From a virus (Duplodnaviria > Heunggongvirae > Uroviricota > Caudoviricetes): a stretch of DNA of 64,000 nucleotides. Shown here one piece after another: positions 2,614 to 35,569 of the stretch. The notes beneath the pieces are model-generated. The model saw nothing but the letters and a program-made list of their open reading frames with translations. It had not been told where the DNA came from and searched no databases. The DNA is taken from the IMG/VR virus record IMGVR_UViG_3300010885_072628; one strand, given 5' to 3'. Made by a program: the position numbers and the translations under genes. The stretch's first letter is position 1; each line of letters begins with the position of its first letter.

Positions 2614-3384
2614 ATGTCGATACCAGTAATCGGAACCGCCGTAGTAAACAACACCAAATGGGTCAAAAGACTGCTAGAAAGCATTGATTACCCAGTTGAT
2701 GAGTTTGTGATTTTCAACAATAATGGTAAAGGAGAACTTGAGAAAGATCTAGAATCTATATCAAGTCAATCTTTTCCTTTTGTGAAAAAGATCAAAGTTT
2801 GCCATCTCCCAGCAAATATAGGTTGTGCTGGGGTGTGGAACATGATCATAAAATGCTACATGCTAAGTCCTTATTGGTTGATCGTTAATGATGATGTTGC
2901 TTTTACACCGAACTTTTTAGAAGCAATGGTCAAAAGTGCTAATAAGTCAAATATAGGAATGGTTCACGGTACGTCTGGGGAATTTGGGTTAGGATATTAC
3001 GATCTTTTTTTGATTAAAGATTGGGTTGTTCAAAAAATAGGTTTGTTTGATGAGAATTTTTATCCTGCTTATGTAGAAGATTGCGATTACATCATGAGGA
3101 TTATTCTCGATCCTTTTGATAAAGAGTTTCTGAATCTTCCTTATTTACATGGAGATTCGCTTGAATACAAGGAAGGTGGTTCTCAAACTATAAAACTTGA
3201 TGCAATGCTAAAAGAGAAAGTCGATCATGCTAGATATATGAATGAAAATTCATATATGAATGAAAAATGGGGAGAATCTTGGCGTTGGTGCGATCCTAGT
3301 AAGACCCCGTTTAATAAAGATTTCCCAATAACCTATACAACTTACGACTTGGATTTCAATAGAAAAAAACACTTAGGTTTTTGA
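2614..3384 (+). CDS. glycosyltransferase, beta-1,4-galactosyltransferase-like (Glyco_transf_7C-like motif). Paralog of 20459..21331.
   Basis: LFDENFYPAYVEDCDYIMRI matches the fDE.F.gwG.ED.D...R motif of GT7/GT2-fold galactosyltransferases. Confidence 0.5.
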   Translation: MSIPVIGTAVVNNTKWVKRLLESIDYPVDEFVIFNNNGKGELEKDLESISSQSFPFVKKIKVCHLPANIGCAGVWNMIIKCYMLSPYWLIVNDDVAFTPNFLEAMVKSANKSNIGMVHGTSGEFGLGYYDLFLIKDWVVQKIGLFDENFYPAYVEDCDYIMRIILDPFDKEFLNLPYLHGDSLEYKEGGSQTIKLDAMLKEKVDHARYMNENSYMNEKWGESWRWCDPSKTPFNKDFPITYTTYDLDFNRKKHLGF

Positions 3385-8603: not shown

Positions 8604-9569
8604 ATGGATATCAAACCACGGGTTTTGACCCCTGAAGAAAAAATTCTTGTAAAAGAAAGATTGCTTCAAGTCTCCCAAATTATCGAAAAGTGGACAAAGG
8701 AATATCCACAATTTTCAACAAAAGAGATAAAGTCGTTTTTTCTCAACAAGACTTTCCCTTTTCCAAAGAACTCAGACCTGCTTATCGACCAAAAAGTGTT
8801 TGAAAACTTCAGAGAAGAAAATCATCCGCATTTTGAAACAACTTTAGAAATGGTTGTTCTAGAGTCTTTTGCTCCAATCTGTTATAATATGTCTAAAAGT
8901 TGGTCCCGCCGAATATCCTCAGAATCTGATATCTCTCCTAGTGCCATTTTTCACGATGTGTTGCAAGATGCATTCATGTCTGTGTTGAATTCCATGTATT
9001 ATTACACAGATTCGAATTATAGTTTTTCGACTATAATTATTGAATCTTTAAAAAGACATATGGATAGAATGTACAGATACAATTATTGCAAAACCTCCCC
9101 TCGTTCTTTGGAAGATCACAAAACAGTTATTCAATACAACATATCGAAGATCAAAGAACCACATGTGACCTTTGATCAGATAGTTAAATCTATGGGTATT
9201 AGCGAAGATCAAACATCGAGACTTTGCGATGTTATTCGTTTTGTTTGTAGAGAGTCTAATGCTGATAGTAATAATTCTTTGAATCTGGGCAACATCATTG
9301 ATACTTCTTCTTCCCAACAAGAAGAGGTTGATTTCGTAGATTGTGTTTCTGTATTCAAGAAGGGACTAAGTTCTGCAGAACTTTCTTTGTTGGAATTGAC
9401 CTCGGAAGAAATTGAAATTTTTAAGATAGGAATTGATTGTGGATTCAGACGAGGATGGCAGTCTGATTGTGCAAAGGACAAATCTCTAAGCAGACAAAGA
9501 ATAGGACAGATCTATATTTCTGCTGTTGCCAAACTCAAGCCCTTGCTTATGAAGACGTTTTATGCCTAA
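8604..9569 (+). CDS. divergent sigma-70-like factor (candidate second phage sigma)
   Basis: YSFSTIIIESLKRHMDR resembles sigma r2.3/2.4 (FSTYA.WWIR). C-terminal LSRQRIGQIYISAVAKLK resembles a region-4 HTH (TRERIRQIE.KAL.KLR). Confidence 0.35.
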   Translation: MDIKPRVLTPEEKILVKERLLQVSQIIEKWTKEYPQFSTKEIKSFFLNKTFPFPKNSDLLIDQKVFENFREENHPHFETTLEMVVLESFAPICYNMSKSWSRRISSESDISPSAIFHDVLQDAFMSVLNSMYYYTDSNYSFSTIIIESLKRHMDRMYRYNYCKTSPRSLEDHKTVIQYNISKIKEPHVTFDQIVKSMGISEDQTSRLCDVIRFVCRESNADSNNSLNLGNIIDTSSSQQEEVDFVDCVSVFKKGLSSAELSLLELTSEEIEIFKIGIDCGFRRGWQSDCAKDKSLSRQRIGQIYISAVAKLKPLLMKTFYA

Positions 9570-9876
9570 AAAAACAACATTAGACTCGTTTGTTCTCAAT
9601 GTTTGTAAAAAAAGTTTATCTTTAAACCATTTTACATGCAATCAGATCGAAAATCTAGCTAAACGACCAGAAGTTGTTGGTGTAGACAGGCACAGCTTTA
9701 TCAACATTTGGCTGAGATACAATACAGATCCACCCAAACCTCCTTATGATTTTCTTTTTGAAACACAGGATGAGGCTGTTTCTTTTGCTAAAAAGGCAAA
9801 AGAAAAATATGATGTAAATTGTGAAATCGATATAGTTGACTTTCGTAAATGGAAATTGAAAAATGGAAAAAAATAA
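9562..9876 (+). CDS. hypothetical protein
   Basis: 104-aa ORF overlapping the previous stop. Confidence 0.3.
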   Translation: MPKKTTLDSFVLNVCKKSLSLNHFTCNQIENLAKRPEVVGVDRHSFINIWLRYNTDPPKPPYDFLFETQDEAVSFAKKAKEKYDVNCEIDIVDFRKWKLKNGKK

Positions 9877-10375
9877 TATTTGGAAAAAAAGAAGAGTGGA
9901 ATTTGCATCCTTGACAAGACAAGGCATGTCTATGACATGTATTGCTAAGATGCATGGAATAACAAAACAGGCTGTTTCTCTCGTGTTAAAAAAAGCTACT
10001 GCTGATGGCGAGATAGTGTTTAAAAACCGGAAAAATAAAAACGATAATCCAAACTATATTGTAAAAGTTTCAAGAAAATATATAACAAAAAAATGTAAAG
10101 AATGTCAGAAAGATTTTTTAGCAACACCTTCTAATAAAAGAAAGACTTGTAGCGAAGATTGTTTGCAAAAAAACAAACATAGAATGTACAACAGGGGAGG
10201 CGAATGGAGCAGGATGCAATTCGTATCTTTGACTTGTTGCGGTTGTGGCAAACCTTTTGAAAGATCGAATTATCTTATGAAAATGGGAGAGCCAAAAAGA
10301 AAAGATAATTCTAGATGTTATTGTTCTAGGGATTGTTATGTTGTTAATAACCTTCGTTTACGTTCAAAGAGTTAA
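9863..10375 (+). CDS. DNA-binding protein: N-terminal HTH plus C-terminal Cys-rich zinc ribbons
   Basis: HTH-like TRQGMSMTCIAKMHGITKQAVSLVLKK. Then CKECQ...CSEDC...CCGCGKPF...CYCSRDCY. Confidence 0.45.
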   Translation: MEKNNIWKKRRVEFASLTRQGMSMTCIAKMHGITKQAVSLVLKKATADGEIVFKNRKNKNDNPNYIVKVSRKYITKKCKECQKDFLATPSNKRKTCSEDCLQKNKHRMYNRGGEWSRMQFVSLTCCGCGKPFERSNYLMKMGEPKRKDNSRCYCSRDCYVVNNLRLRSKS

Positions 10376-13266: not shown

Positions 13267-13974
13267 TTAGTAATTATTTTTTAATTCAATTACATCAGAA
13301 AAATTATACAAAAATTTACAATTTGTGAATTTTTTATTTGGATTAAATATCTTATTTGATAAGTTTTTATTCATTTTTTGTTTGTTTTTATCATTCATTT
13401 CTTTCCAACTTAGATCTGAATTCATATTTTTTATAGTTTCTTCTTTTGAGTTTAATATAGGAAGTAATTCACAATCTATATGAGAAAATTTATATCCTAA
13501 TAATTCGCATCTTTTCACGAAATCTGTGTCGTGGCATCCAGCAGGTAAAAAGGATTCATCGTAACCTCCAACTTCTTTAAAAACATCTTTTGAACAGCCT
13601 ATTCTTCCGTATACTCCTTTTCTGAATATATTGCACCAAATACCATCGGGATTATATTTTTTTATATTTTCTATAGAATTTGATACGAAGTTGTCAACAT
13701 CTAGATTGAAAAAATAATCTCCAGAACTTAATCTAGCAGCGAAATTTTTAGCTATTGGAATAGAATATTCGTTATAATCCAATGTTTGGTAATAATGTAT
13801 TCTTTCTAATTTAATGTTATTCATCATAAAATCAGACATTCCATCATCTGATCCGCAATCGACAATAATCCATTCGATATTTTTATTTTGATTTATTTGC
13901 AAAAAATTGTGTTCAAATGTTTGTTTGAATTGAAAAAATCTGTTCTTAATTTGAGAGCAATAGGATATTTTCAT
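13267..13974 (-). CDS. glycosyltransferase family 2
   Basis: WIIVDCGSDDGMSDF (GT2 hhhhDDgStD) and FNLDVDNF. Confidence 0.5.
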   Translation of the reverse strand: MKISYCSQIKNRFFQFKQTFEHNFLQINQNKNIEWIIVDCGSDDGMSDFMMNNIKLERIHYYQTLDYNEYSIPIAKNFAARLSSGDYFFNLDVDNFVSNSIENIKKYNPDGIWCNIFRKGVYGRIGCSKDVFKEVGGYDESFLPAGCHDTDFVKRCELLGYKFSHIDCELLPILNSKEETIKNMNSDLSWKEMNDKNKQKMNKNLSNKIFNPNKKFTNCKFLYNFSDVIELKNNY

Positions 13975-19683: not shown

Positions 19684-20523
19684 TCAATTAAGAACTTTTG
19701 TTTTTTGTAAAGGCACAGGCTTTGCTTTTTTAATTATTTCATCAAAGCTTTCTTCTACTTGTTTTAATGTCCTGTCGTATTGTGTGCCATATCCATTTGC
19801 ACGATTAAACTCTGTTTGTTTTTCTTGTCTCATTTTGTGACGGGCTAAACAAAACTTCTTTGATAGATTTCTATAGTGTAATAGTTTTAATAGATTGTTT
19901 TTAGAAAACAAAGCTGGCCCAGTCGGTTCGCACCAGTGACACCCCGCAGTAAAATTTATTTCTACTTCGCTAGATTTAAAGATACATGGCTTAGATACTG
20001 CTTTGCTTGGAATTCCAAGATTGTTTTGCATGTATATCTGCCCCAGTTTTATATTAGGCAGCTTAGTAGAAACCATTTCATAACCATTAGGAACGAGAAT
20101 TGTTGCGTCTTGTCTTTCTGCATTTGTTATTAATAGCTTTAGATTTGGATGATAAACAAATTCATCCATATCTACAACTATAGACCAGTCATCACCTTGG
20201 CTTTTCCAACAATTGTTTTTCAAGTTTGTGAATATATCATCTCTTATCCCATCAGAATTATACTCTCTTAATATAGCTCCGCTTTTTTCGATTATTTCTC
20301 GAGAATTGTCTGTTGAATTGTTATCGTAAATTACAATTCTATTTGTTATTGTGCTATAATGCTTAATGAAAAATGGTAATAAAATTTCTTCATTATAACA
20401 AAAAGAATAAACAGATATATTCAAAATAGTTTCCTTTCTTAATTCAATTGAGTAGCTAATGATTAATTTACTTGGAAAGATGACAAGAACATTAGATAAA
20501 AAGTCTGATTTGTTAATTGGCAT
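19684..20523 (-). CDS. glycosyltransferase (GT2-like/GT92-like)
   Basis: ISVYSFCYNEEILLPFFIKHY...IVIYDNNSTDNS. The 5' end overlaps the divergent 20459 gene, so the true start is uncertain. Confidence 0.5.
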   Translation of the reverse strand: MPINKSDFLSNVLVIFPSKLIISYSIELRKETILNISVYSFCYNEEILLPFFIKHYSTITNRIVIYDNNSTDNSREIIEKSGAILREYNSDGIRDDIFTNLKNNCWKSQGDDWSIVVDMDEFVYHPNLKLLITNAERQDATILVPNGYEMVSTKLPNIKLGQIYMQNNLGIPSKAVSKPCIFKSSEVEINFTAGCHWCEPTGPALFSKNNLLKLLHYRNLSKKFCLARHKMRQEKQTEFNRANGYGTQYDRTLKQVEESFDEIIKKAKPVPLQKTKVLN

Positions 20524-21331
20524 ACCTTATTTCAATAGGTATGATTTGTTGGAGAAAAACATTTCTTCTTTAAAAAACAAAGGCGACATAATGATCATAA
20601 ACAACTCAATTAACAATCAATCGAATTATGATGCTTTAAGATTTTTGTCGAATATTGCCATCGTTGATCAGACTATGAATATTGGTGTTTCGGCTTCTTG
20701 GAATCTAATATTGAAGTATGCCATAAAGTACAAATACAAGCATGTTCTCATCACCTCTACAGATGTAGAGCATAAAGAGGGAAATATAGAGCTTGCTCTA
20801 GAAGATTTTGAACGCAGTAAAGATTGTTTTTTGGGGCATATCGAAGATTATAATTCTTTTTATATTGATCCAAAAATTGTCGATATAGTTGGATGGTTTG
20901 ATGAAAACTATTACCCAGCATATTGTGAAGACACAGACTACACTTATAGAATCTACTTGGCGGGCCTTTATAAAAAACCTCTTATTGTCGGGGAAAACCC
21001 ACCTATACATTTAAGGTCTCAAACCGTTTTAAGTGATAAGAGCCTTTTTCCTAAATTTCAATATACATACGATTACAATAAAATTTATTTCAAAAAGAAA
21101 TGGGGCGTTTGGGACTTTAATATGATTGAGTCTTGCGGTAATTCATTGCACCTTTTGTTCAAGGAAAAAATAAAAGATTTTGGTGCTTATATTCATCCTT
21201 TTAATGATTTAGGAAAAGATCATAAATACTGGAGCGAACCCGAAGATTTGCATTTAAGGGATTGGGACAAAATCGAGGTAATCAAAAATATCGAATCAAT
21301 ATCGTATAAAGTTTTTTCTAAGCATATATAG
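20459..21331 (+). CDS. beta-1,4-galactosyltransferase-like glycosyltransferase. Paralog of 2614..3384.
   Basis: WFDENYYPAYCEDTDYTYRIY motif. Confidence 0.45.
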   Translation: MINLLGKMTRTLDKKSDLLIGIPYFNRYDLLEKNISSLKNKGDIMIINNSINNQSNYDALRFLSNIAIVDQTMNIGVSASWNLILKYAIKYKYKHVLITSTDVEHKEGNIELALEDFERSKDCFLGHIEDYNSFYIDPKIVDIVGWFDENYYPAYCEDTDYTYRIYLAGLYKKPLIVGENPPIHLRSQTVLSDKSLFPKFQYTYDYNKIYFKKKWGVWDFNMIESCGNSLHLLFKEKIKDFGAYIHPFNDLGKDHKYWSEPEDLHLRDWDKIEVIKNIESISYKVFSKHI

Positions 21332-23413: not shown

Positions 23414-24499
23414 ATGTATGATTATCTAATAGTAGGTGCCGGAATATACGGAAGTGTCTTTGCAGAAAGAATGAAAAGCAAAGGCAAATCTGTGCTAATA
23501 ATAGACAAAAGACCGCATGTAGCAGGTAACTGCTACACAGAGGAAGTCGATGGAATTCAAGTACATCGATACGGTTGTCATATATTTAATACCGGCAAAA
23601 AAAATGTTTGGGAATATGTCAACAAGTTCGCTTCGTTCAATAATTACCGACATACAGGAAAAGTGAATTTCGAAGGAAAGGTTTATAGCTTCCCTATAAA
23701 CTTATTGACTCTTCATCAAATCTGGGGCGTAAGTACACCAGAAGAGGCAGAAAACAAATTAAAAGAAGTTAGGATTGATATCAAAAATCCTAAAAACATG
23801 GAAGATTGGTGCTTGTCTCAGATAGGCGAGCAATTATACGAAACCTTCATAAAAGGTTATTCAACAAAACAATGGGGAACTACGCCTGATAATCTGCCAG
23901 CATCTATTGTTCAGCGAATTCCTATTCGACTAACGTATAATGATGATTATTACGAAAACGCCACTTATCAAGGAATTCCATTAGGTGGTTATACCAAAAT
24001 GATTTCCAACATTTTAGATGGAATAAAAGTAGATCTTAGTGTTGATTTTTTTGATATAAAAGAAAAATGGAAACAGTATGCGAAAAAATTGGTTTATTGC
24101 GGTCCAATAGATCGATTTTTTGATTATGAGTTTGGCGAACTAGAATACAGAAGTCTTAAATGGGAAAATAAAGTTTTAACAGGAGATTATCAAGGATGTA
24201 GTGTTGTAAATTATACCGATATGGACAATAAGTTCACAAGAGTTATAGAACACAAGCACTTTGAATTTAAAAATCAAGAAAAAACAGTAGTGAGCTGGGA
24301 GTACTCTGTGCCATGGAAAGAGACTCAAGATCCATATTATCCAATAACTAATGAAAAAAATAAAGAAAGATGCCTAAAGTACAAAAAAATAGCAGAACAA
24401 CAAAAGGATGTTCTTATTTCTGGACGTTTAGGCAAATTTCTTTACCTCGATATGGACGACACAATTGCTTTAGCTCTTAAAGAGTCAAATGAGTTTTAG
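23414..24499 (+). CDS. glf: UDP-galactopyranose mutase
   Basis: Near full-length collinearity with Glf: MYDYLIVGAGIYGSVFAE...VLIIDKRPHVAGNCYTE...IPLGGYTKMI...YRSLKWE...RVIEHKHFEF. Confidence 0.85.
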   Translation: MYDYLIVGAGIYGSVFAERMKSKGKSVLIIDKRPHVAGNCYTEEVDGIQVHRYGCHIFNTGKKNVWEYVNKFASFNNYRHTGKVNFEGKVYSFPINLLTLHQIWGVSTPEEAENKLKEVRIDIKNPKNMEDWCLSQIGEQLYETFIKGYSTKQWGTTPDNLPASIVQRIPIRLTYNDDYYENATYQGIPLGGYTKMISNILDGIKVDLSVDFFDIKEKWKQYAKKLVYCGPIDRFFDYEFGELEYRSLKWENKVLTGDYQGCSVVNYTDMDNKFTRVIEHKHFEFKNQEKTVVSWEYSVPWKETQDPYYPITNEKNKERCLKYKKIAEQQKDVLISGRLGKFLYLDMDDTIALALKESNEF

Positions 24500-24909
24500 A
24501 ATGGAAGTTCATTTGACAAAAGCTCTTTGTAAAAACTATCCGCTGTCTCGATATCAGCGACATCAGTATCTACAATCTGTGCAGAGTCAGAAGTAGACTT
24601 TGTTCCTCGCAAATCTAAAGTGTGTACGGCAACAAACACGCTAGATCGAGAGCCGCCAGTTTCCTTATCTTTCCAATTACTCTGCATAAGCCTGCCAGTA
24701 ATTGCTACTTTCTTGCCTTTTAGTAGATATTCTACTGCTCCATTTGGATTCCACCACTCACAATCTATAAAGGTTGTATCCTTATCTCCATTTTGTGAAG
24801 CTATTCGAAATTTAGCCAAATTTTTTTCTTTGATATTTTTGACTTCAACATCTTTGACTAGATTTCCTTCAACAACAATTACATTTGTGTCTTTATGCTT
24901 TGAACTCAT
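24496..24909 (-). CDS. ssb: single-stranded DNA-binding protein
   Basis: OB-fold SSB pattern (NVIVVEGNLVKDVEV...FRIAS...W), Gly/Ser-rich linker, acidic C-terminal tail ending ELPF. Confidence 0.7.
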   Translation of the reverse strand: MSSKHKDTNVIVVEGNLVKDVEVKNIKEKNLAKFRIASQNGDKDTTFIDCEWWNPNGAVEYLLKGKKVAITGRLMQSNWKDKETGGSRSSVFVAVHTLDLRGTKSTSDSAQIVDTDVADIETADSFYKELLSNELPF

Positions 24910-24987
24910 ATAATTAAACTCCTATAGTTTTTTGGAACCTTGTTTAATTATATGAGTTTTCAATTTCTAATCAAGTCTTGTTTCAAT

Positions 24988-25572
24988 TTTGTGAAGGATA
25001 AAAACTCTGGCCGCAAGTTGTCAACAAGACAAAATGCGGCCAGAACCCCTAACAAAGTTTTCTGATATTTTGTGAACAGGAAAAATTTTACACATAATTT
25101 AGATTTGTGAGTAAAAATAACTTTTCTCTGGATAACTCCTTGTTGGAGTCGAGAAAAAGCTTGCTCTTTAAGACTTTCGACTGCTTTATATATGCTCAAA
25201 TTTTAAATTTGTGAAGCCGTTTTTAAAATTTGCACTGTAGAATTTGTGCAGCATGTGATTTTTTACAATCGGGCTTTTTTGTGCTATAATCAGTATGGGC
25301 CGCTATTCAAGCGGGGCAAAAGCCAAAAAGCGGAAGTGTGCAATTATTTGTGGAAGGTAAAAAATGAAGTTTTTTAGAAAAAATGAGCTTTGCGATATAT
25401 TGGAAAAAGACATAGATTTGTGTTATGAATTTCTTAGAATAGACGATGATATGGAGCAAGAAGAAAGAGAAGCACAGATTAAAAAACAAAAGCCTATTAA
25501 GAAGGCAAAAACACCTAGCAAAAGCAATGTGTTAGAAAGTGATCTCGAAAAATTCATCAAATATTATTTGTG
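24988..25572 (+). repeat. array of at least 8 direct TTTGTG(A/C)A(G) repeats with about 35-bp phasing. Iteron-like; candidate origin or regulatory region.
   Basis: Copies at 24988, 25069, 25104, 25208, 25243, 25278, 25347, 25567. Spacings 35/35/35/69/104 bp. Includes an extended -10-like TGCTATAAT at 25281-25290. Confidence 0.5.
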
Positions 25573-25573
25573 A
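25364..25573 (+). CDS. hypothetical protein (first gene of the long rightward operon)
   Basis: 69-aa ORF. Confidence 0.3.
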   Translation: MKFFRKNELCDILEKDIDLCYEFLRIDDDMEQEEREAQIKKQKPIKKAKTPSKSNVLESDLEKFIKYYL

Positions 25574-26312
25574 AGGGAGATATATAATTCGTAAAGAAAA
25601 TGGTGCTTCTGCTGTGCCATTGAAAGGAATAATGAATTTTAAAGAGTTTTACGAATTTGAATCAGAATGTGAGTTGTTTCGTGAGTGTGACGCTATAGAT
25701 GAAAATTGGCTAACATCTCCTTTAAAATTTGCAGCAGGAACGGTAGGTAATTTAGCGACTCAAGCTGTGAAAGGTGTGGGAAATGTCGCTGGTGGATTAG
25801 GTCGAATGGGATTGGGTGCTGCACAAACTGGATTGGGAGCGTTGCAAGTAGCAGGCGGAGGTGCTAAAACAGGATCTGAAAATATTCGTGGCGGAATAAG
25901 TCGAGTTGCCGGTGGTGTAGGGCAAGGATTAAAAGGTGCAACGCAATTTGTTGCTTCTCCTGCAACGGCATTGCTTCGTGGAGCACAAGCATCAGCAGAA
26001 GATTTTACTACTCCTATGTCACAAAATCGCAACTGGATGCAAAAAACTCTAGGATTGAACAGATGGAGTCCAGATCCAGAATCTCCTGTGCAATCTCCTG
26101 TGCAACCTGCTTCTAAACCTTCTGTGCAAAGTGCTTCTGGTAAACAATGGCAAGATCTTGTGAAGGCTTATAATAATACACAAAATCCCGATGAAAGAGC
26201 TGGTATACAGCGTGAGTTGAAGAAAATGGATCCTGCTAGATATGCCCAAGCTAAAGAAAAAGCAAATCAAATGAAGCTGGCACAGAGACAAGGCCAACTA
26301 CAAAGTGTGTAA
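25539..26312 (+). CDS. Gly-rich protein with a Q/P-rich C-terminus
   Basis: GNLATQAVKGVGNVAGGLGRMGLGAAQTGLGALQVAGGGAKTG. Confidence 0.4.
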   Translation: MISKNSSNIICEGRYIIRKENGASAVPLKGIMNFKEFYEFESECELFRECDAIDENWLTSPLKFAAGTVGNLATQAVKGVGNVAGGLGRMGLGAAQTGLGALQVAGGGAKTGSENIRGGISRVAGGVGQGLKGATQFVASPATALLRGAQASAEDFTTPMSQNRNWMQKTLGLNRWSPDPESPVQSPVQPASKPSVQSASGKQWQDLVKAYNNTQNPDERAGIQRELKKMDPARYAQAKEKANQMKLAQRQGQLQSV

Positions 26313-26453: not shown

Positions 26454-26930
26454 ATGGACTATTTTTTAGACACTGAGTTTAATAGCTTTGGTGGTGAACT
26501 TATATCTTTAGCGTTGGTAAGAGAAGATGATAAAAGCATCTATCTAATTTATCCCGAACTTGAGTCTTATGACCCTTGGGTAGCGGACAATATAATTCCT
26601 ATCTTGCGTAATGTTCCATCAACAATTACTTATCTGGAAACAAAGCAACAAGCTGCATATTTGCTGCAAGAATTTCTTCTAGGCGATGACCGCCCAAAAA
26701 TCATCACAGATTGGCCAGACGACATACGATATTTCTGTGCTGAGTTGATAACGAAACCTGGACAAATGATTAATGTTCCAAATATTAATTTCTCTATGCT
26801 AAGAGTTAATGCTTATCCGACATTAGTTCAAGGAGCGATCCAGCACAATGCTTGGTGGGACGCAGTGGCACTTAAAGAGCTTGTGAACCAGCACCGTCAA
26901 GCTGAAGGTGGGCTGCGAAATCGGGGCTAA
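26454..26930 (+). CDS. DEDD-type 3'-5' exonuclease-like protein
   Basis: N-terminal FLDTEF (Exo I-like) and C-terminal H.AWWDAVALKEL (Exo III-like H....DA). Confidence 0.4.
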   Translation: MDYFLDTEFNSFGGELISLALVREDDKSIYLIYPELESYDPWVADNIIPILRNVPSTITYLETKQQAAYLLQEFLLGDDRPKIITDWPDDIRYFCAELITKPGQMINVPNINFSMLRVNAYPTLVQGAIQHNAWWDAVALKELVNQHRQAEGGLRNRG

Positions 26931-26969
26931 TTTAAAATTTGCCCGCTAAAAAAATTGTACCCTAATAAT
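26929..26969 (+). promoter_or_regulatory. copy 3 of the AAAAAAATTGTACCCTAATAAT motif, with an upstream AATTTAAAATTT
   Basis: Core 26948-26969. Part of a 113-bp segment duplicated at 51596-51701. Confidence 0.5.
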
Positions 26970-26983
26970 TGGAATCCGCACCT

Positions 26984-28096
26984 ATGAGAAATAAAATGAA
27001 CCCACAATGCGAATTAGTTTTTTTTGGCCCCGGCCATGTTCAAAATTTGCCCAAGCCTAGTCGAGAGGAACGCCTCAGAGCAGTAGACAAATCCAACCCC
27101 GACAGTCCCTTCAGCAAGTTTATTGGTAATGACCAAGCAATAAAGAAGATGCAAGCCGCAGTGTACAGTGCTTTGGGCAAGCCAAATCACCTTCAGAAAG
27201 AACTTTCTTTTGCAATTTTTGGCCCTGCTTCTTCTGGTAAGACCACTCTCGCCAGAATCTATGCTGAATCTGTGCAGCTTCCTTTTGTAGAGATTAGTCC
27301 TAAGAGTGTAAGGAAAGTAGAAGATGTTTTTAGTCTTATACGGTCAGAGCTAAATAACTTCAAAATCCCAATTTCTCTCGTTGAATTCAATGACACATAC
27401 ATTCTGCCTCCTGTTGTCGTTTTTATTGACGAAGTTCATGCTTTGTCGAAATCGCTTGTGGACGGCTTGCTAAAAGCAACTGAATATAAAGACGGCGTGA
27501 TGGTTACTGAGAGCGGCACAACTGTTTATTGTGAGAATGTTACATGGATGATAGCCACCACAGATGAGGGCAAACTTTTCGACGCCTTCAGAACTAGATT
27601 TAGTCCTATCATGCTTAAGTATCTTAACAAGTCAGATATCGCCAAGATTGTAAAGCTAGACAACCCAGATTTGTCTGATGATGTGTGTTCGCTTATCAGC
27701 TTCTATAACAGCAGAATTCCCCGCAAAGCGTTGGAGTTCGCAAGATATATGCGAATTGTTAAAGACATGAATCCTGCTAGTAGTTGGGAAGAGGTTACTA
27801 AGCAAGTCGCTCACGACGAGGGAATCGATGAGTTTGGTATGCATGAGCTTCATCTTAAGGTGCTGAAGTCTCTTGTGAATGGTCCTGTTGCTCGTAATAG
27901 AATGAGTTCAATTGTTGGTCGAAAAGAGGAAGAGGTAGAAAGAAACATTCTTCCGTGGCTGCTGACAGAAACAGAAGATCAACTAGCTATGGTTGGTGTG
28001 TCCAGCAAAGGGTACATTATCACTGACGCAGGTATTAAGGAATTGGTGCGTCGTAATTTCCCTTTTGATTTTAAAAACAAGAATAGAGCAGCTTAA
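26984..28096 (+). CDS. RuvB-like AAA+ ATPase (Holliday-junction branch-migration helicase homolog)
   Basis: FGPASSGKTTLARIYAE (Walker A), VVFIDEVHAL (Walker B), MIATTDEG...FRTRF (sensor region), C-terminal winged-helix collinear with RuvB. ATG at 26984 (the track's TTG start lies inside the promoter motif). Confidence 0.7.
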   Translation: MRNKMNPQCELVFFGPGHVQNLPKPSREERLRAVDKSNPDSPFSKFIGNDQAIKKMQAAVYSALGKPNHLQKELSFAIFGPASSGKTTLARIYAESVQLPFVEISPKSVRKVEDVFSLIRSELNNFKIPISLVEFNDTYILPPVVVFIDEVHALSKSLVDGLLKATEYKDGVMVTESGTTVYCENVTWMIATTDEGKLFDAFRTRFSPIMLKYLNKSDIAKIVKLDNPDLSDDVCSLISFYNSRIPRKALEFARYMRIVKDMNPASSWEEVTKQVAHDEGIDEFGMHELHLKVLKSLVNGPVARNRMSSIVGRKEEEVERNILPWLLTETEDQLAMVGVSSKGYIITDAGIKELVRRNFPFDFKNKNRAA

Positions 28097-33266: not shown

Positions 33267-34091
33267 ATGATTGAAGTATATTCGGAACTAACAAAAGAAA
33301 AACTGCCCGTGGAATTTATGAACTTTCCAGATAATGAGAGTTTTGTTAAATTTGACTATAACGGGGGACCTTTAAACATTGTTTGGAAATATGAAAATGA
33401 TAGCGAATTAATTAGTTTGGCATTGTTGTATGATGTTATTAGTCAGAATCGTTGTTCGATAGTTAATCTCTTTATTCCTTATTTTCCACACGCACGACAA
33501 GATAGAGAAGAAGTTAAAAGTCAACCTTTCTCTTTAAGAGTTGTATCTGAATTTGTGAACGAGTTCTTAATAGGTGATTTGTGCGTCTGCTTAGATGTTC
33601 ATTCCGATGTTCTGGAGACAACAATGGTCATGGAGTTTGAGAACATCCCAAGTTCAAATTATTCTGACAGCATCGATACAAAGTATGATTATATTATTTG
33701 TCCAGATAAAGGGGCTATGAATAGGTGTGAATCTTGGGGCGAAAAAAGAAATACGCCAGTTCTATATTGCCAAAAAAATCGTGATCCTTCAACGGGCAAA
33801 CTGAGCGATCCTATTATTCCAGATATTGATTTATCTAATAAAAGAGTTTTATTGGTAGATGATATTGGAACAGGGTTTGGTACTCATGTTATGCTGGCAA
33901 ATGTGTTCCATGGAAAGCATCAAAATCTTGTTATGGATTTATGGGTTACTCACGCATCTTTCGTCAGAGGCAAGGAAATGGTATTACGTGTTTTCAATCA
34001 TGTTTATACCACAGATAGCTTGAAGGGTGCCACCCAACAAAACTCTGACAAAATTACAGTTTTTGATTGCACGAAATACTTTTTTAACTAA
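33267..34091 (+). CDS. ribose-phosphate pyrophosphokinase (Prs) homolog. Candidate ADP-ribose pyrophosphokinase (Adps) of a NARP1-type NAD+ reconstitution pathway.
   Basis: IPYFPHARQDR (Prs IPYFGYARQDR), CLDVHSD (DLHA), VLLVDDIGTGFGT (PRPP-binding loop, divergent from DDMIDTGGT), VTHASF. Confidence 0.7.
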   Translation: MIEVYSELTKEKLPVEFMNFPDNESFVKFDYNGGPLNIVWKYENDSELISLALLYDVISQNRCSIVNLFIPYFPHARQDREEVKSQPFSLRVVSEFVNEFLIGDLCVCLDVHSDVLETTMVMEFENIPSSNYSDSIDTKYDYIICPDKGAMNRCESWGEKRNTPVLYCQKNRDPSTGKLSDPIIPDIDLSNKRVLLVDDIGTGFGTHVMLANVFHGKHQNLVMDLWVTHASFVRGKEMVLRVFNHVYTTDSLKGATQQNSDKITVFDCTKYFFN

Positions 34092-34102
34092 GGAATAACA
34101 AA

Positions 34103-35569
34103 ATGGAAGTTCTCCCAATTTTGCTTTCGGACAGCTACAAACAATTTCACTGGATGATGTATCCAAATGGTATTACACGCCTTTATAGCAATTTCACTCC
34201 TCGTAGTTTCAAACACTTAGGATGTGACAAGGCTGTATTTTTTGGTCTACAATACTATATCAAGGAGTATATTCTGGGTCAGTGGCAAAGAAACTTCTTT
34301 GATAAGCCACTAAATGAAGTAGCACAAGAATACCAAAGATTTCATAAACATTTTAGTTTTTATGATATGCCAGTAGAGCATATTACTAAGCTTCACAATC
34401 TTGGTTATCTACCAATAAAAATTAAAGCACTTCCAGAAGGTTGTCTTGTTAATGAAAAGATTCCATTTTTTACAATCACAAACACCCATGATGATTTTGC
34501 ATGGTTAGTTAATTTTCTTGAAACTCAAATTAGCACAAGCATTTGGGACTGTTGTGTTGTTGCTACTATTGCAAGACAATATCGAACTCTATTAAATAAT
34601 CATGCCAATAAGACTTGTGATAATAAAGATTTTGTTCAATGGCAGGGACATGATTTTAGTCAACGAGGAAGAAGTAGTACAGAAAGCACTTTTAATCAAG
34701 CGGGTCATTTGCTAAGTTTTACCGGCACGGATACTATTCCTAGTGTTTTTATGCTAGAGAAATATTATAATGCTGATATTACCAAAGAATTAGTAGGAAG
34801 CAGCGTTCCAGCGAGCGAACACAGTATTCAAACAAGTTATGGTAAAGAAAATGAAATTGATGGATTTATAAGAATTCTGGACAGATTCCCAAGCGGTATT
34901 GTCAGTATTGTTAGTGACAGTTTTGATCTCTGGGAAGTCTGTACAACTTTTGTAACCAAACTTAAAGATAAAATTTTATCTAGAGATGGAAAGCTAGTCA
35001 TTAGGCCAGATAGTGGTAATCCTGTTGACATTGTTTGTGGTGCTATAGAACAAGAATGGCAAAACGAACAAGCAACACTTCCACAAGAAAAAGGTGTTGT
35101 TGAACTTCTTTGGGATGTTTTTGGAGGAACAATTAACGAGAAAGGATATAAAGTTCTTGATCCTCATATTGGAGTAATCTACGGAGATAGTATTTCTCTT
35201 GAAAGAGCAGACGCTATTTGCAAAAGACTAGAGCGAAAAGGATTTGCTAGCAGCAATATTGTGTTTGGTATTGGCAGCTACACCTATAACCACAATACCA
35301 GAGATAGTTTGGGAATTGCTGTTAAAAGTACATACTGTGAGGTTGATGGAGAAAAGAGAAATATTTTTAAAGATCCCGTAACGGATGATGGAGTTAAGAA
35401 GTCTGCACGGGGGTTATTGAAAGTAGTTAAAGAAAATAATGAATATGTTTTGTATGATCAGGTTAGTGATCTCGAAGAAACTCAGGGTGAATTAACAACA
35501 GTTTTTGAAAATGGAAAACTTTTGGTAGATCATAAATTGAGCGATATTAGAGAAAGGTTGTGGAAATAA
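34103..35569 (+). CDS. nadV: nicotinamide phosphoribosyltransferase family protein (NadV/NAMPT; Namat-like)
   Basis: 488 aa, collinear with NAMPT: FFGLQYYIKEY, LPIKIKALPEG, GHDFSQRG, FTGTDT, SVPASEHS, IVSDSFD, IRPDSGNP, IYGDSI, NIFKDPV. Confidence 0.85.
   Translation: MEVLPILLSDSYKQFHWMMYPNGITRLYSNFTPRSFKHLGCDKAVFFGLQYYIKEYILGQWQRNFFDKPLNEVAQEYQRFHKHFSFYDMPVEHITKLHNLGYLPIKIKALPEGCLVNEKIPFFTITNTHDDFAWLVNFLETQISTSIWDCCVVATIARQYRTLLNNHANKTCDNKDFVQWQGHDFSQRGRSSTESTFNQAGHLLSFTGTDTIPSVFMLEKYYNADITKELVGSSVPASEHSIQTSYGKENEIDGFIRILDRFPSGIVSIVSDSFDLWEVCTTFVTKLKDKILSRDGKLVIRPDSGNPVDIVCGAIEQEWQNEQATLPQEKGVVELLWDVFGGTINEKGYKVLDPHIGVIYGDSISLERADAICKRLERKGFASSNIVFGIGSYTYNHNTRDSLGIAVKSTYCEVDGEKRNIFKDPVTDDGVKKSARGLLKVVKENNEYVLYDQVSDLEETQGELTTVFENGKLLVDHKLSDIRERLWK

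What the first reader, a model, noticed from the sequence alone, without database searches (positions are those of the whole stretch)
24988..25577. Phased array of at least 8 direct TTTGTGAAG repeats next to the SSB gene: iteron-like origin or regulatory region
In the 450-bp intergenic region between the leftward SSB gene and the start of the long rightward operon, (A)TTTGTG(A/C)A(G) recurs at 24988, 25069, 25104, 25208, 25243, 25278, 25347 and 25567. All copies are in the same orientation, and spacings are multiples of about 35 bp (35, 35, 35, 69, 104). One copy overlaps an extended -10-like TGCTATAAT (25281-25290). Phased direct repeats next to a replication gene are typical of iteron-containing origins. 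Alternatively they are tandem operator sites for a regulator controlling the operon promoter.
Basis: seen in the sequence. Interest (0 to 1): 0.6.

Follow-up and report, generated by a model that had tools for sequence, protein, structure and literature searches.

The report
Conserved TTTGTGAAG binding-site array in phage
The repeats are real and belong to a short DNA motif that a whole group of uncultured large freshwater phages keeps in arrays upstream of a RuvB-like motor gene; they are most likely docking sites for an unidentified DNA-binding protein, possibly marking a replication origin, but that function is not shown.

Summary
Observation confirmed. TTTGTG occurs 9 times on the + strand and never on the - strand in 24988-25575. 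It occurs 46 times forward in all 64 kb (Poisson P about 1e-9). Seven copies (25069-25417) sit on a 35-bp lattice (p about 0.006).

It is not a local oddity. The extended site (A/T)TTTGTGAAGG recurs as arrays of 5-25 copies in non-coding DNA 0.2-3.5 kb upstream of a RuvB-like AAA+ gene. This holds in 11 of 41 non-redundant related metagenomic phage lineages upstream and 0 of 46 downstream. Spacing varies: 12, 14, 22, 23 or 35 bp. A weight matrix built only from relatives re-finds the window's array.

SSB adjacency is not conserved; the RuvB-like gene is the only conserved neighbour. In the window, copies overlap the extended -10 of a near-consensus sigma-70 promoter, the first gene's ribosome-binding site, and an SSB promoter candidate.

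Classical origin marks are absent here: no GC-skew switch, no easily melted stretch, no DnaA boxes, no initiator-type gene. Two relatives do show opposed arrays around about 700 bp of AT-rich DNA.

Verdict: a conserved multi-site protein-binding array. An iteron-like origin with coupled promoter control is the leading reading (about 0.4). A pure operator array or a centromere/motor-loading site remain open.

The parts
24988..24996 (+). Site 1, TTTGTGAAG (off the 35-bp lattice by about 10 bp). It abuts the -10 and start region of the leftward promoter candidate TTGACA-18-TATCCT.
   Evidence: core intact in the near-identical strain L089 while its flanks differ
25069..25077 (+). Site 2, TTTGTGAAC (lattice position 0)
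25104..25112 (+). Site 3, TTTGTGAGT (lattice position 1)
25208..25216 (+). Site 4, TTTGTGAAG (lattice position 4)
25243..25251 (+). Site 5, TTTGTGCAG (lattice position 5), just upstream of the -35 of the rightward promoter
25278..25286 (+). Site 6, TTTGTGCTA (lattice position 6). It overlaps the TG of the extended -10 and the first bases of TATAAT.
25347..25355 (+). Site 7, TTTGTGGAA (lattice position 8). It overlaps the GGAAGG ribosome-binding site of ORF 25364.
25417..25425 (+).
25567..25575 (+). Site 9, TTTGTGAAG(GG), the best match to the lineage consensus. It contains the TGA stop of the 69-aa ORF and is off the lattice.
   Evidence: top PWM hit in the window
24792..24800 (+). Possible outlying copy, TTTGTGAAG, inside the SSB gene on the antisense strand (a further bare TTTGTG lies at 24884). 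Membership is uncertain.
25262..25290 (+). Rightward sigma-70-type promoter TTTACA-17-TGcTATAAT (11 of 12 matches, extended -10), which heads the operon. This is a consensus prediction only.
24947..24974 (-). Leftward promoter candidate for SSB, TTGATT-16-TATAAT. A second candidate, TTGACA-18-TATCCT, lies at 25024-24995.
25006..25044 (.). GC-rich hairpin inside the array region. On the - strand it is followed by a U-run, making it a terminator-like insulator upstream of the SSB promoter.
   Evidence: -26 and -30 kcal/mol; z = -8.6 and -6.8
24496..24909 (-). SSB gene, the left flank. Its adjacency to the array is not conserved in relatives.
25364..25573 (+). 69-aa ORF, first gene of the rightward operon. 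It has no family match and no homolog next to arrays elsewhere.
26996..28096 (+). RuvB-like AAA+ gene with a C-terminal winged helix, the only gene conserved next to the arrays across the lineage. Its start at ATG 26996 follows the homologs.
26948..26969 (+). Lineage-specific promoter-like motif aaaaaaatTGTACCCTaataa, directly upstream of the RuvB-like gene. In relatives, tandem copies of it separate the array from the gene.

Best explanation
The region is the window's copy of a lineage-wide cis-element. That element is an array of an asymmetric 9-10 bp site, consensus (A/T)TTTGTGAAGG, in the main non-coding control region upstream of the operon carrying a RuvB-like AAA+ gene. The lineage is a clade of uncultured large and jumbo freshwater phages.

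Shown:
- The sites are non-random and strand-specific.
- Their core and flanks are conserved across relatives whose RuvB-like proteins are only 46-71% identical to the window's.
- They are confined to the upstream side of that gene.
- They are re-arrayed at different spacings in different phages.

Inferred:
- Each site binds one subunit of a phage-encoded sequence-specific DNA-binding protein, not yet identified.
- Many subunits bind cooperatively, head to tail, to build a nucleoprotein complex.

Most likely function (inferred): this complex works like plasmid or phage iterons. It marks and organises a replication origin. Because copies lie over the extended -10 of the rightward promoter, over the first ribosome-binding site and beside the SSB promoter, the same complex also shuts down or meters the two divergent transcription units as the protein accumulates.
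For: Real and local:
- 9 forward and 0 reverse copies in about 600 bp, against 46 forward copies in 64 kb; P about 1e-9.
- 35-bp lattice, p about 0.006.
- Only one such cluster exists in the 64 kb.

Conserved:
- TTGTGAA/TGTGAAG is the top over-repeated 7-mer upstream of the RuvB-like gene in the window and in L021, L024, L025, L030, L034, L041, L042 and L046.
- Motif density is 0.4-0.9 per kb upstream, against about 0.02-0.2 per kb downstream.
- 11 of 41 non-redundant lineages have an upstream cluster and 0 of 46 a downstream one; Fisher p = 1e-4.
- With a PWM trained on relatives only, 7 of its top 30 window hits fall in the array. Flank-only scores give p = 1.8e-5.
- Cores are intact in strain L089.

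Iteron-like behaviour:
- Same core with spacings of 12, 14, 22, 23 and 35 bp, and copy numbers of 5-25.
- The arrays lie in unusually long non-coding gaps of 0.4-1.8 kb.
- L042 and L046 have opposed arrays flanking about 700 bp of AT-rich DNA with palindromes.
- Some sublineages carry arrays of a different unit at the same place.
- In the unrelated contig L226, the identical 9-mer forms direct and inverted repeats starting at the 3' end of a P4-alpha/D5-type primase-helicase gene.

Promoter coupling: copies lie over the extended -10, the RBS and an SSB promoter candidate.

Not a known RNA.
Against: - No binder is identified, and no initiator-type gene lies nearby.
- The only conserved neighbour folds as RuvB, not as Orc1/Cdc6, DnaA or Rep.
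- In the window there is no GC-skew sign change at the array, no helix-stability minimum, no DnaA-box cluster, and GC content equals the genome average.
- The site is shorter (9-10 bp) than classical 17-22 bp iterons. The spacings of 12, 14 and 35 bp are not whole helical turns.
- In the one complete but distant genome (LR756511.1), the RuvB-like gene is far from the skew extrema and there is no array.
- About three quarters of related lineages show no such array within 3.5 kb.
- All relatives were found through the RuvB-like gene, so arrays elsewhere in their genomes cannot be excluded. A motif-first scan of IMG/VR found no member of this lineage.
Confidence: 0.4

Rival explanations
1. The array is purely transcriptional. 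The sites are operators, or upstream activating sites, for a phage regulator. That regulator switches the host-sigma-70 promoter of the rightward operon and the divergent SSB promoter. In relatives it switches the tandem TGTAC-type promoters of the RuvB-like operon. It has no role in replication.
For: - Copies overlap the extended -10 (25278), lie just upstream of the -35 (25243), cover the first RBS (25347) and abut a leftward promoter candidate (24988).
- In relatives the arrays end 40-110 bp upstream of 2-3 tandem TGTAC promoter-like motifs that precede the RuvB-like gene.
- Single copies overlap sigma-70-like promoters in L030, L042 and the SSB promoters of L090-92.
- All window copies point the same way as the operon.
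- No origin hallmarks are present in the window.
Against: - 9-25 sites spread over 0.5-1.8 kb far exceeds usual operator sets.
- Blocks of 7-13 tandem 12-bp units sit hundreds of bp from any predicted promoter.
- The motif occurs at only one locus in 64 kb, whereas regulators usually have several targets.
- No regulator gene is conserved beside the arrays.
Confidence: 0.25
2. The array is a centromere-like site or a motor-loading site. It is the cis-site of a DNA-positioning or DNA-pumping module encoded by the adjacent operon, comparable to parC/tubC arrays upstream of their NTPase operons or to oriented KOPS/SRS sites for FtsK/SpoIIIE. The RuvB-like hexameric translocase would be recruited or oriented there.
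For: - The RuvB-like gene is the only gene that stays linked to the arrays while all other neighbours change.
- Arrays lie upstream of that gene only.
- 12-bp tandem units occur as in tubC/parC, and opposed polarity is seen in L042 and L046.
- The protein is a RuvB-fold dsDNA motor with a C-terminal winged helix whose helix 311-323 is invariant across the aligned lineage, matching the conservation of the DNA motif.
Against: - No ParA, ParM, TubZ or adaptor gene was found.
- RuvB winged helices are not known to read sequence.
- L001-type phages keep a 70%-identical RuvB-like protein, including the invariant helix, but have no TTGTGAAGG array within 6-7 kb.
- The linkage is partly an ascertainment effect, because all loci were anchored on this gene.
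- Unrelated viruses have the same 9-mer arrays without any RuvB-like gene.
Confidence: 0.15
3. The motif acts in RNA or as a promoter element: an SD-like UGUGAAGG leader motif, a -35 or extended -10 variant, or the decayed remains of a tandemly duplicated 35-bp promoter unit.
For: - TGTG resembles the TRTG extended -10 motif (recalled from memory, not tested here).
- Three units carry TTTACA/TTTGCA about 20 bp after the core, so one period could equal one promoter length.
- Two copies coincide with purine-rich RBS-like sequence (25347, 25567).
- Promoter-like hits are mildly enriched: 10 against 4.5 +- 2.3.
Against: - Only one copy is followed by a usable -10.
- Spacings of 12-14 bp in relatives are incompatible with promoters.
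- Arrays occur on either strand relative to the downstream gene (L025; left arrays of L042, L046 and L030) and mostly upstream of the promoters that would transcribe them.
- No Rfam family matches.
- TRF finds no unit similarity beyond the core.
Confidence: 0.07
4. The repeats are a chance product of an AT-rich intergenic region and have no function.
For: The genome is AT-rich (about 35% GC). The 9-mer patterns are only marginally enriched window-wide.
Against: - Local enrichment has P about 1e-9, with complete strand bias.
- Other intergenic regions of similar GC lack the motif.
- Conservation of core, flanks and position is seen in many relatives.
Confidence: 0.02

Closest known systems
Iteron-containing replication origins (lambda ori, P1 oriR, plasmids R6K, RK2, F; from established knowledge)
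   Same: - Multiple same-orientation copies of one site in a non-coding region.
- Copy number and spacing change between relatives while the core is kept.
- Copies overlap a promoter, which is the usual autoregulation layout.
- Some relatives have an AT-rich stretch between arrays.
   Different: - The site is 9-10 bp rather than 17-22 bp.
- Spacings of 12, 14 and 35 bp are not whole helical turns.
- There is no Rep, O or pi-type initiator gene next to it.
- The window copy has no AT-rich unwinding element, no DnaA boxes and no skew switch.
Phage P4 ori/crr and the alpha primase-helicase (winged-helix origin-binding domain, PDB 1ka8, as cited in PMC2777425; octamer 'type I iterons' TGTTCACC recalled from memory)
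   Same: - Very short iterons in variable spacing and both orientations, in more than one block.
- They are read by a winged helix at the C-terminus of a hexameric NTPase.
- The reverse complement here (CCTTCACAA) shares the TTCAC core.
- L226 shows the identical 9-mer beside a P4-alpha/D5-like primase-helicase gene.
   Different: - No primase-helicase is encoded in the window or the related loci.
- The linked NTPase is RuvB-like, not SF3.
- L226 showed no detectable 1ka8-type domain by sequence.
- The resemblance of the DNA cores may be coincidental.
Partition centromeres made of short direct repeats upstream of their operon (R1 parC/ParR, pBtoxis tubC/TubR; from established knowledge)
   Same: - Blocks of 11-12 bp tandem direct repeats flanking or preceding the promoter of an NTPase operon.
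- Relatives L042, L046 and L030 have 12-bp units.
   Different: - No actin-, tubulin- or Walker-type partition NTPase and no small adaptor gene were found.
- The window array has 35-bp spacing.
- The lifestyle (lytic or plasmid-like) is unknown.
FtsK-KOPS and SpoIIIE-SRS oriented loading sites (from established knowledge)
   Same: - An asymmetric purine-rich 8-9-mer whose orientation matters. GTGAAGGG differs from the B. subtilis SRS GAGAAGGG, as I recall it, at one base.
- The linked gene encodes a hexameric dsDNA translocase with a C-terminal winged helix.
   Different: - KOPS/SRS are dispersed genome-wide, not arrayed at one locus.
- The motor is RuvB-fold, not FtsK-fold.
- Nothing here was tested biochemically.
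Arrayed asymmetric operator sites (omega heptads of pSM19035; 13-bp 'stoperators' of cluster A mycobacteriophages; from established knowledge)
   Same: - Short asymmetric sites used in multiple copies.
- Orientation is tied to the direction of transcription.
- Copies lie over promoter elements and inside the transcribed leader.
   Different: - Omega heptads are contiguous (7-bp spacing).
- Stoperators are scattered through the genome rather than clustered.
- No RHH or repressor gene is identified here.

Membership tests
Iteron-type replication origin | Several direct repeats of one protein-binding site clustered in non-coding DNA | tested here: met
   9 same-strand copies in about 600 bp, P about 1e-9; conserved in relatives
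Iteron-type replication origin | Adjacent easily melted AT-rich unwinding element | tested here: not met
   In the window, the least stable 100-bp stretch of the region ranks only at the 7.5th percentile, and GC is 33.5%, the genome average. L042 and L046 do have about 700 bp of AT-rich DNA between arrays.
Iteron-type replication origin | Cognate initiator gene (Rep, O, alpha or DnaA/Orc-like) next to the repeats | tested here: not met
   Flanking genes are SSB, a 69-aa ORF, an unknown protein, an RNase H-like protein and a RuvB-like protein. The RuvB-like protein matches only RuvB in the top 43 PDB fold hits. No other family is shared next to the arrays.
Iteron-type replication origin | Compositional skew switches sign at the site | tested here: not met
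   GC skew is positive in every 2-kb bin from 14 to 64 kb. This is a weak test, since skew here follows gene orientation.
Iteron-type replication origin | The site supports initiation (marker frequency, autonomous replication) | not testable with these tools
   Needs replicating DNA or a plasmid assay.
Operator array at a promoter | Sites overlap core promoter or translation-start elements | tested here: met
   25278 lies over TGcTATAAT, 25243 next to the -35, 25347 over the RBS and 24988 at a leftward promoter candidate. The promoters are consensus predictions only.
Operator array at a promoter | A regulator gene that co-occurs with the sites | tested here: not met
   No conserved small DNA-binding gene lies beside the arrays. 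9863..10375 is HTH-HNH-like. A regulator encoded elsewhere cannot be excluded.
Partition centromere (parC/tubC type) | Short tandem direct repeats upstream of an operon encoding a partition NTPase and an adaptor | tested here: inconclusive
   The repeat layout fits in L042, L046 and L030. However, the operon's NTPase is RuvB-like, and no ParA, ParM, TubZ or adaptor was detected.
CRP/FNR-type site (TGTGA-N6-TCACA) | Inverted half-sites 6 bp apart | tested here: not met
   There is no TCACA anywhere in 24910-25600 and no palindromic partner.
DnaA-box cluster | Several TTATCCACA-like 9-mers | tested here: not met
   The region has one 1-mismatch box (25127) and one relaxed box (25086), which is background density.
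Bacteroidetes -7 promoter box (TAnnTTTG) | TA exactly two bases before TTTG | tested here: not met
   Only 3 of 9 copies fit. The genes use strong Shine-Dalgarno sites and sigma-70-type promoters.
CRISPR array or simple tandem repeat | Repeated units of 20-40 bp with high identity | tested here: not met
   TRF found no array. Only a sub-threshold CRISPR-DR2 hit, E = 0.04. Only the 9-10 bp core is shared.

The most novel reading that the evidence does not exclude
Its invariant C-terminal winged helix recognises the oriented TTTGTGAAGG sites, so that hexameric dsDNA pumps are loaded with defined polarity at one place in the genome. In L042 and L046 this would be on both sides of an AT-rich core. 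This would be a new kind of phage origin-opening or DNA-pumping module, combining a RuvB-fold motor with KOPS-like or P4-like short polar sites and needing no RuvA.
Probability: 0.12. Interest if true: 0.8.

Novelty: new variant of a known kind. Interest (0 to 1): 0.5.

Why it matters
Origins, centromeres and master control regions are essentially unmapped in uncultured large and jumbo phages. This work gives three things that make the question testable:
- a concrete 9-10 bp site;
- a set of natural arrays with different spacings;
- one consistently linked gene (RuvB-like).

The binder can be fished out with the DNA, and the array can be tested for replication or silencing activity. If the array turns out to be an ordinary operator or iteron set, it is still a useful landmark for annotating this phage clade.

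Tried and rejected
- Nucleotide search of the region against GenBank phages: no match.
- IMG/VR search with the single RuvB-like protein: nothing.
- 'AAA+ initiator next to its iterons': the protein is RuvB by sequence and by fold, not Orc1/Cdc6 or DnaA.
- SSB as the anchor: four homologs were found. The near-identical one only repeats the window; the others have short upstream regions with no array.
- Whole-genome skew test in the only complete relative, LR756511.1 (595 kb, fetched in 12 pieces). The skew maximum is near 25 kb and the minimum near 590 kb, the RuvB-like gene at 151 kb is at neither, and there is no real array. The apparent motif clusters at 156-162 kb are sparse hits inside coding sequence, so I do not count them.
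- GTDB genome scan: one relative on a probably mis-binned contig, with no array.
- IMG/VR scan for TTTGTG x3 at 35-bp spacing: 23 hits, all unrelated tandem repeats or bare triplets.
- IMG/VR scan for paired TTGTGAAGG: 120 loci, none with a RuvB-like gene. Of the nine densest clusters, four are coding repeats and five are non-coding direct/inverted repeat structures in unrelated viruses. These are useful only as analogies.
- Gene-family co-occurrence search for a binder: only the RuvB-like gene is shared.
- Rfam: nothing.
- Literature searches for the motif, for RuvB-like genes with iterons, and for huge-phage origins: nothing relevant. The P4 octamer sequence could not be verified in the held library.
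- Alternative site models (CRP palindrome, DnaA box, Bacteroidetes -7 box, MotA-like -30 box, TTGTGA as a -35): rejected by inspection and counts.
Full report
1. WHAT IS IN THE SEQUENCE

The window is phage-like and AT-rich (about 35% GC). A leftward SSB gene (24496-24909; Pfam SSB 2e-13, PHROG 44) faces a rightward operon. That operon begins with a 69-aa ORF (25364-25573), followed by an unknown protein, an RNase H-like protein (26454-26930) and a RuvB-like AAA+ protein (26996-28096).

In and just beyond the 454-bp gap, TTTGTG starts at 24988, 25069, 25104, 25208, 25243, 25278, 25347, 25417 and 25567, always on the + strand. There is no copy on the - strand. Two further + strand copies lie inside the SSB gene (24792, 24884).

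The whole 64 kb holds 46 forward and 31 reverse copies. Nine copies in 600 bp has Poisson P about 1e-9, and no other part of the window comes close.

Seven sites (25069-25417) occupy positions 0, 1, 4, 5, 6, 8 and 10 of a 35-bp lattice within +-1 bp. A lattice this good, at any period of 25-60 bp, arises in 28 of 5000 random placements.

The units share only the 9-10 bp core. Tandem Repeats Finder sees nothing, and the repeat finder reports only short families.

2. LOCAL ANATOMY

The best sigma-70-type match in the region is TTTACA (25262)-17 bp-TGcTATAAT (25290), 11 of 12 with an extended -10. Relative to it:
- site 25278 supplies the TG and overlaps the -10;
- site 25243 lies just upstream of the -35;
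- site 25347 overlaps the GGAAGG ribosome-binding site of the first ORF;
- site 25567 contains that ORF's stop codon.

Leftward promoter candidates for SSB are TTGATT-16-TATAAT (24974-24947) and TTGACA-18-TATCCT (25024-24995). Site 24988 abuts the latter.

A very stable GC-rich hairpin (25006-25044; -26 and -30 kcal/mol; z = -8.6 and -6.8) sits among the sites. On the - strand it is followed by a U-run. All promoters are consensus predictions, not evidence of activity.

3. RELATIVES

There is no nucleotide match in GenBank phages. The RuvB-like protein has hundreds of metagenomic homologs on contigs up to 424 kb, mostly from lakes. I collected 87 loci around them.

TTTGTG/TTGTGA clusters recur in these loci:
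- L046: 10 copies in 400 bp just upstream of the gene.
- L021: 22-bp spacing, TTTGTGAAGAGGTG.
- L025: seven CTTCACAAA copies on the other strand.
- L057-59: 14-bp tandem CCTTCACAAACCAA.
- L042 and L030: 12-bp tandem blocks plus scattered copies.
- L034, L041, L024, L037 and L035/49: further clusters.

De novo, TTGTGAA/TGTGAAG is the most over-repeated 7-mer in the 3.5 kb upstream of the gene in nine loci including the window. Variants are TGTGCAA and TTGTGGAGATAGCTGG. Some sublineages carry unrelated repeat units at the same place.

Position relative to the gene is consistent:
- Motif density is 0.4-0.9 per kb upstream, against about 0.02-0.2 per kb downstream.
- Among non-redundant lineages, 11 of 41 have at least 4 copies per 500 bp upstream and 0 of 46 downstream; Fisher p = 1e-4.

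A weight matrix trained only on relatives puts 7 of its top 30 window hits into the array. The flanks alone, outside the seeded core, score far higher for array sites than for other TTGTG occurrences (p = 1.8e-5).

A near-identical strain (L089) differs at five intergenic positions, none in a core.

The arrays lie in unusually long non-coding gaps of 0.4-1.8 kb. They are usually followed by 2-3 tandem copies of a TGTAC-type promoter-like motif and then the RuvB-like gene.

L042 and L046 share a striking layout: a left array on the - strand, about 700 bp of AT-rich DNA with palindromes, then a right array on the + strand.

4. WHO BINDS?

No gene family other than the RuvB-like one is shared beside the arrays. 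SSB adjacency is specific to the window; SSB homologs elsewhere have 80-125 bp upstream and no array.

The AAA+ protein is a true RuvB homolog:
- Sequence: 1in4, E = 1e-14, all three domains.
- Fold: model pLDDT 84; the top 43 PDB hits are all RuvB, TM about 0.75.

It is not an Orc1/Cdc6- or DnaA-type initiator. Its winged-helix helix 311-323 is invariant across the aligned lineage. That fits the conservation of the DNA motif. However, it is equally invariant in L001-type phages, which lack the array. The binder therefore remains unidentified.

5. ORIGIN TESTS

In the window:
- GC skew is positive on both sides of the array.
- The region is not a helix-stability minimum.
- It has no DnaA-box cluster, and its GC content is average.

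The only complete relative (LR756511.1, 595 kb, 45% identity) has its skew extrema near 25 and 590 kb, far from its RuvB-like gene at 151 kb. It has no genuine array, so it does not inform the question.

In favour of an iteron-like role:
- The array occurs at a single locus.
- Spacing and copy number turn over rapidly around a fixed core.
- The non-coding setting is long and includes several other repeat families.
- Opposed arrays flank AT-rich DNA in two relatives.
- By analogy, contig L226 carries the identical 9-mer as direct and inverted repeats starting at the 3' end of a P4-alpha/D5-type primase-helicase gene.

P4 alpha is documented to carry a winged-helix origin-binding domain after its helicase (PMC2777425). 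Its octamer iteron TGTTCACC is from my memory and shares TTCAC with the reverse complement here.

6. OTHER READINGS

- A pure operator array is well supported by the overlaps with promoter and RBS elements. It is strained by the number and spread of sites and by 12-bp tandem blocks far from promoters.
- A centromere or motor-loading site is suggested by the exclusive linkage to a dsDNA-motor gene. It lacks any partition gene and is partly an ascertainment effect.
- RNA-level or promoter-element readings fail on spacing, strand and position.
- Chance is excluded.

7. VERDICT

This is a real, conserved, lineage-specific array of protein-binding sites. I have found no published description in the held library.

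I rate the layered claim 'iteron-like origin organiser that also occludes the overlapping promoters' at 0.4, pure operator at 0.25, centromere/motor-loading at 0.15, and the rest small. The general claim that it is a multi-copy binding platform for one DNA-binding protein I hold at about 0.85.

In kind it is a new variant of a known class (arrayed short direct repeats). Interest is moderate (0.5): not surprising in principle, but a well-defined handle on replication and control in an uncultured jumbo-phage clade.

Noticed in passing
window 995, 8530, 26956, 28601, 51688, 58943 (+ strand); L006 (21 copies in 13 kb); L001-3, L004, L021, L025, L030, L042, L046: A ~20-nt motif, aaaaaaatTGTACCCTataat(ggg), precedes six + strand genes or RNAs in the window, including the RuvB-like gene, a sigma-like gene and tRNA-Gln. 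In L006, gagtaaTGTACCCTaatgggtgtga sits about 45 nt before nearly every gene start. This looks like a lineage-specific promoter. The window encodes a sigma-factor-like protein (8604-9569, phrog_351, E = 1e-7) that could read it.
   Followed up: partly
window 24903-24919 / 24942-24958: A perfect 17-bp inverted repeat spans the SSB start codon, with the SD in its 22-nt loop. It also covers the -10 of one SSB promoter candidate. As RNA on the - strand it folds at -19.8 kcal/mol (z = -4.8). It may be a translational or operator control of SSB (sub-threshold RNA-OUT hit).
   Followed up: partly
window 25006-25044: A GC-rich 10+5-bp hairpin inside the otherwise AT-rich array (-26 and -30 kcal/mol). 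On the - strand it is followed by GAGUUUUUAU, so it could terminate leftward transcription just before the SSB promoter.
   Followed up: partly
L001 5700-5970 (also L002, L003, L008, L009): Phages with a 70%-identical RuvB-like protein have no TTGTGAAGG array. Instead they carry a dense array of different units (AGAATGGCT, GAATAACGCT, many TAGAAT/TATAAT-like) in the same place, bracketed by two copies of aatttaatTGTACCTTatt.
   Followed up: no
L042 ~4212; L057 2238, 2266; L030 5657-5724; L021 455, 479; L041 4, 55: A second element, a palindrome of the type GTAGAGTACTCTAC / GGAATACTCCAC, recurs right beside the TTGTGAAGG arrays in several relatives. It was not seen next to the window's array.
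   Followed up: partly
L198, L155 (virophage contigs, Sputnik-type capsid), L199, L238, L226: Unrelated viral contigs carry (TTGTGAAGG)n, a spacer of about 60-80 bp, then inverted (CCTTCACAA)n in non-coding DNA. In L226 the repeats start at the 3' end of a P4-alpha/D5-type primase-helicase gene. Whether this is shared ancestry or coincidence is unknown.
   Followed up: partly
L021, L024, L034, L041, L046, L025, L089: Many metagenomic contigs end at or inside the arrays. This probably reflects assembly breaks at repeats or strain-variable DNA, but real DNA ends were not excluded.
   Followed up: no
window 33267-35569: Adjacent ribose-phosphate pyrophosphokinase-like (phrog_619, 7e-56) and nicotinamide phosphoribosyltransferase (Pfam NAPRTase 5e-43; phrog_448 3e-188) genes form an NAD-salvage pair, as seen in other large phages.
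   Followed up: no
window 2614-3384, 13267-13974, 19684-20523, 20459-21331: The left third of the window carries several glycosyltransferase-like genes.
   Followed up: no
It is more likely a homing endonuclease than a regulator.
   Followed up: partly
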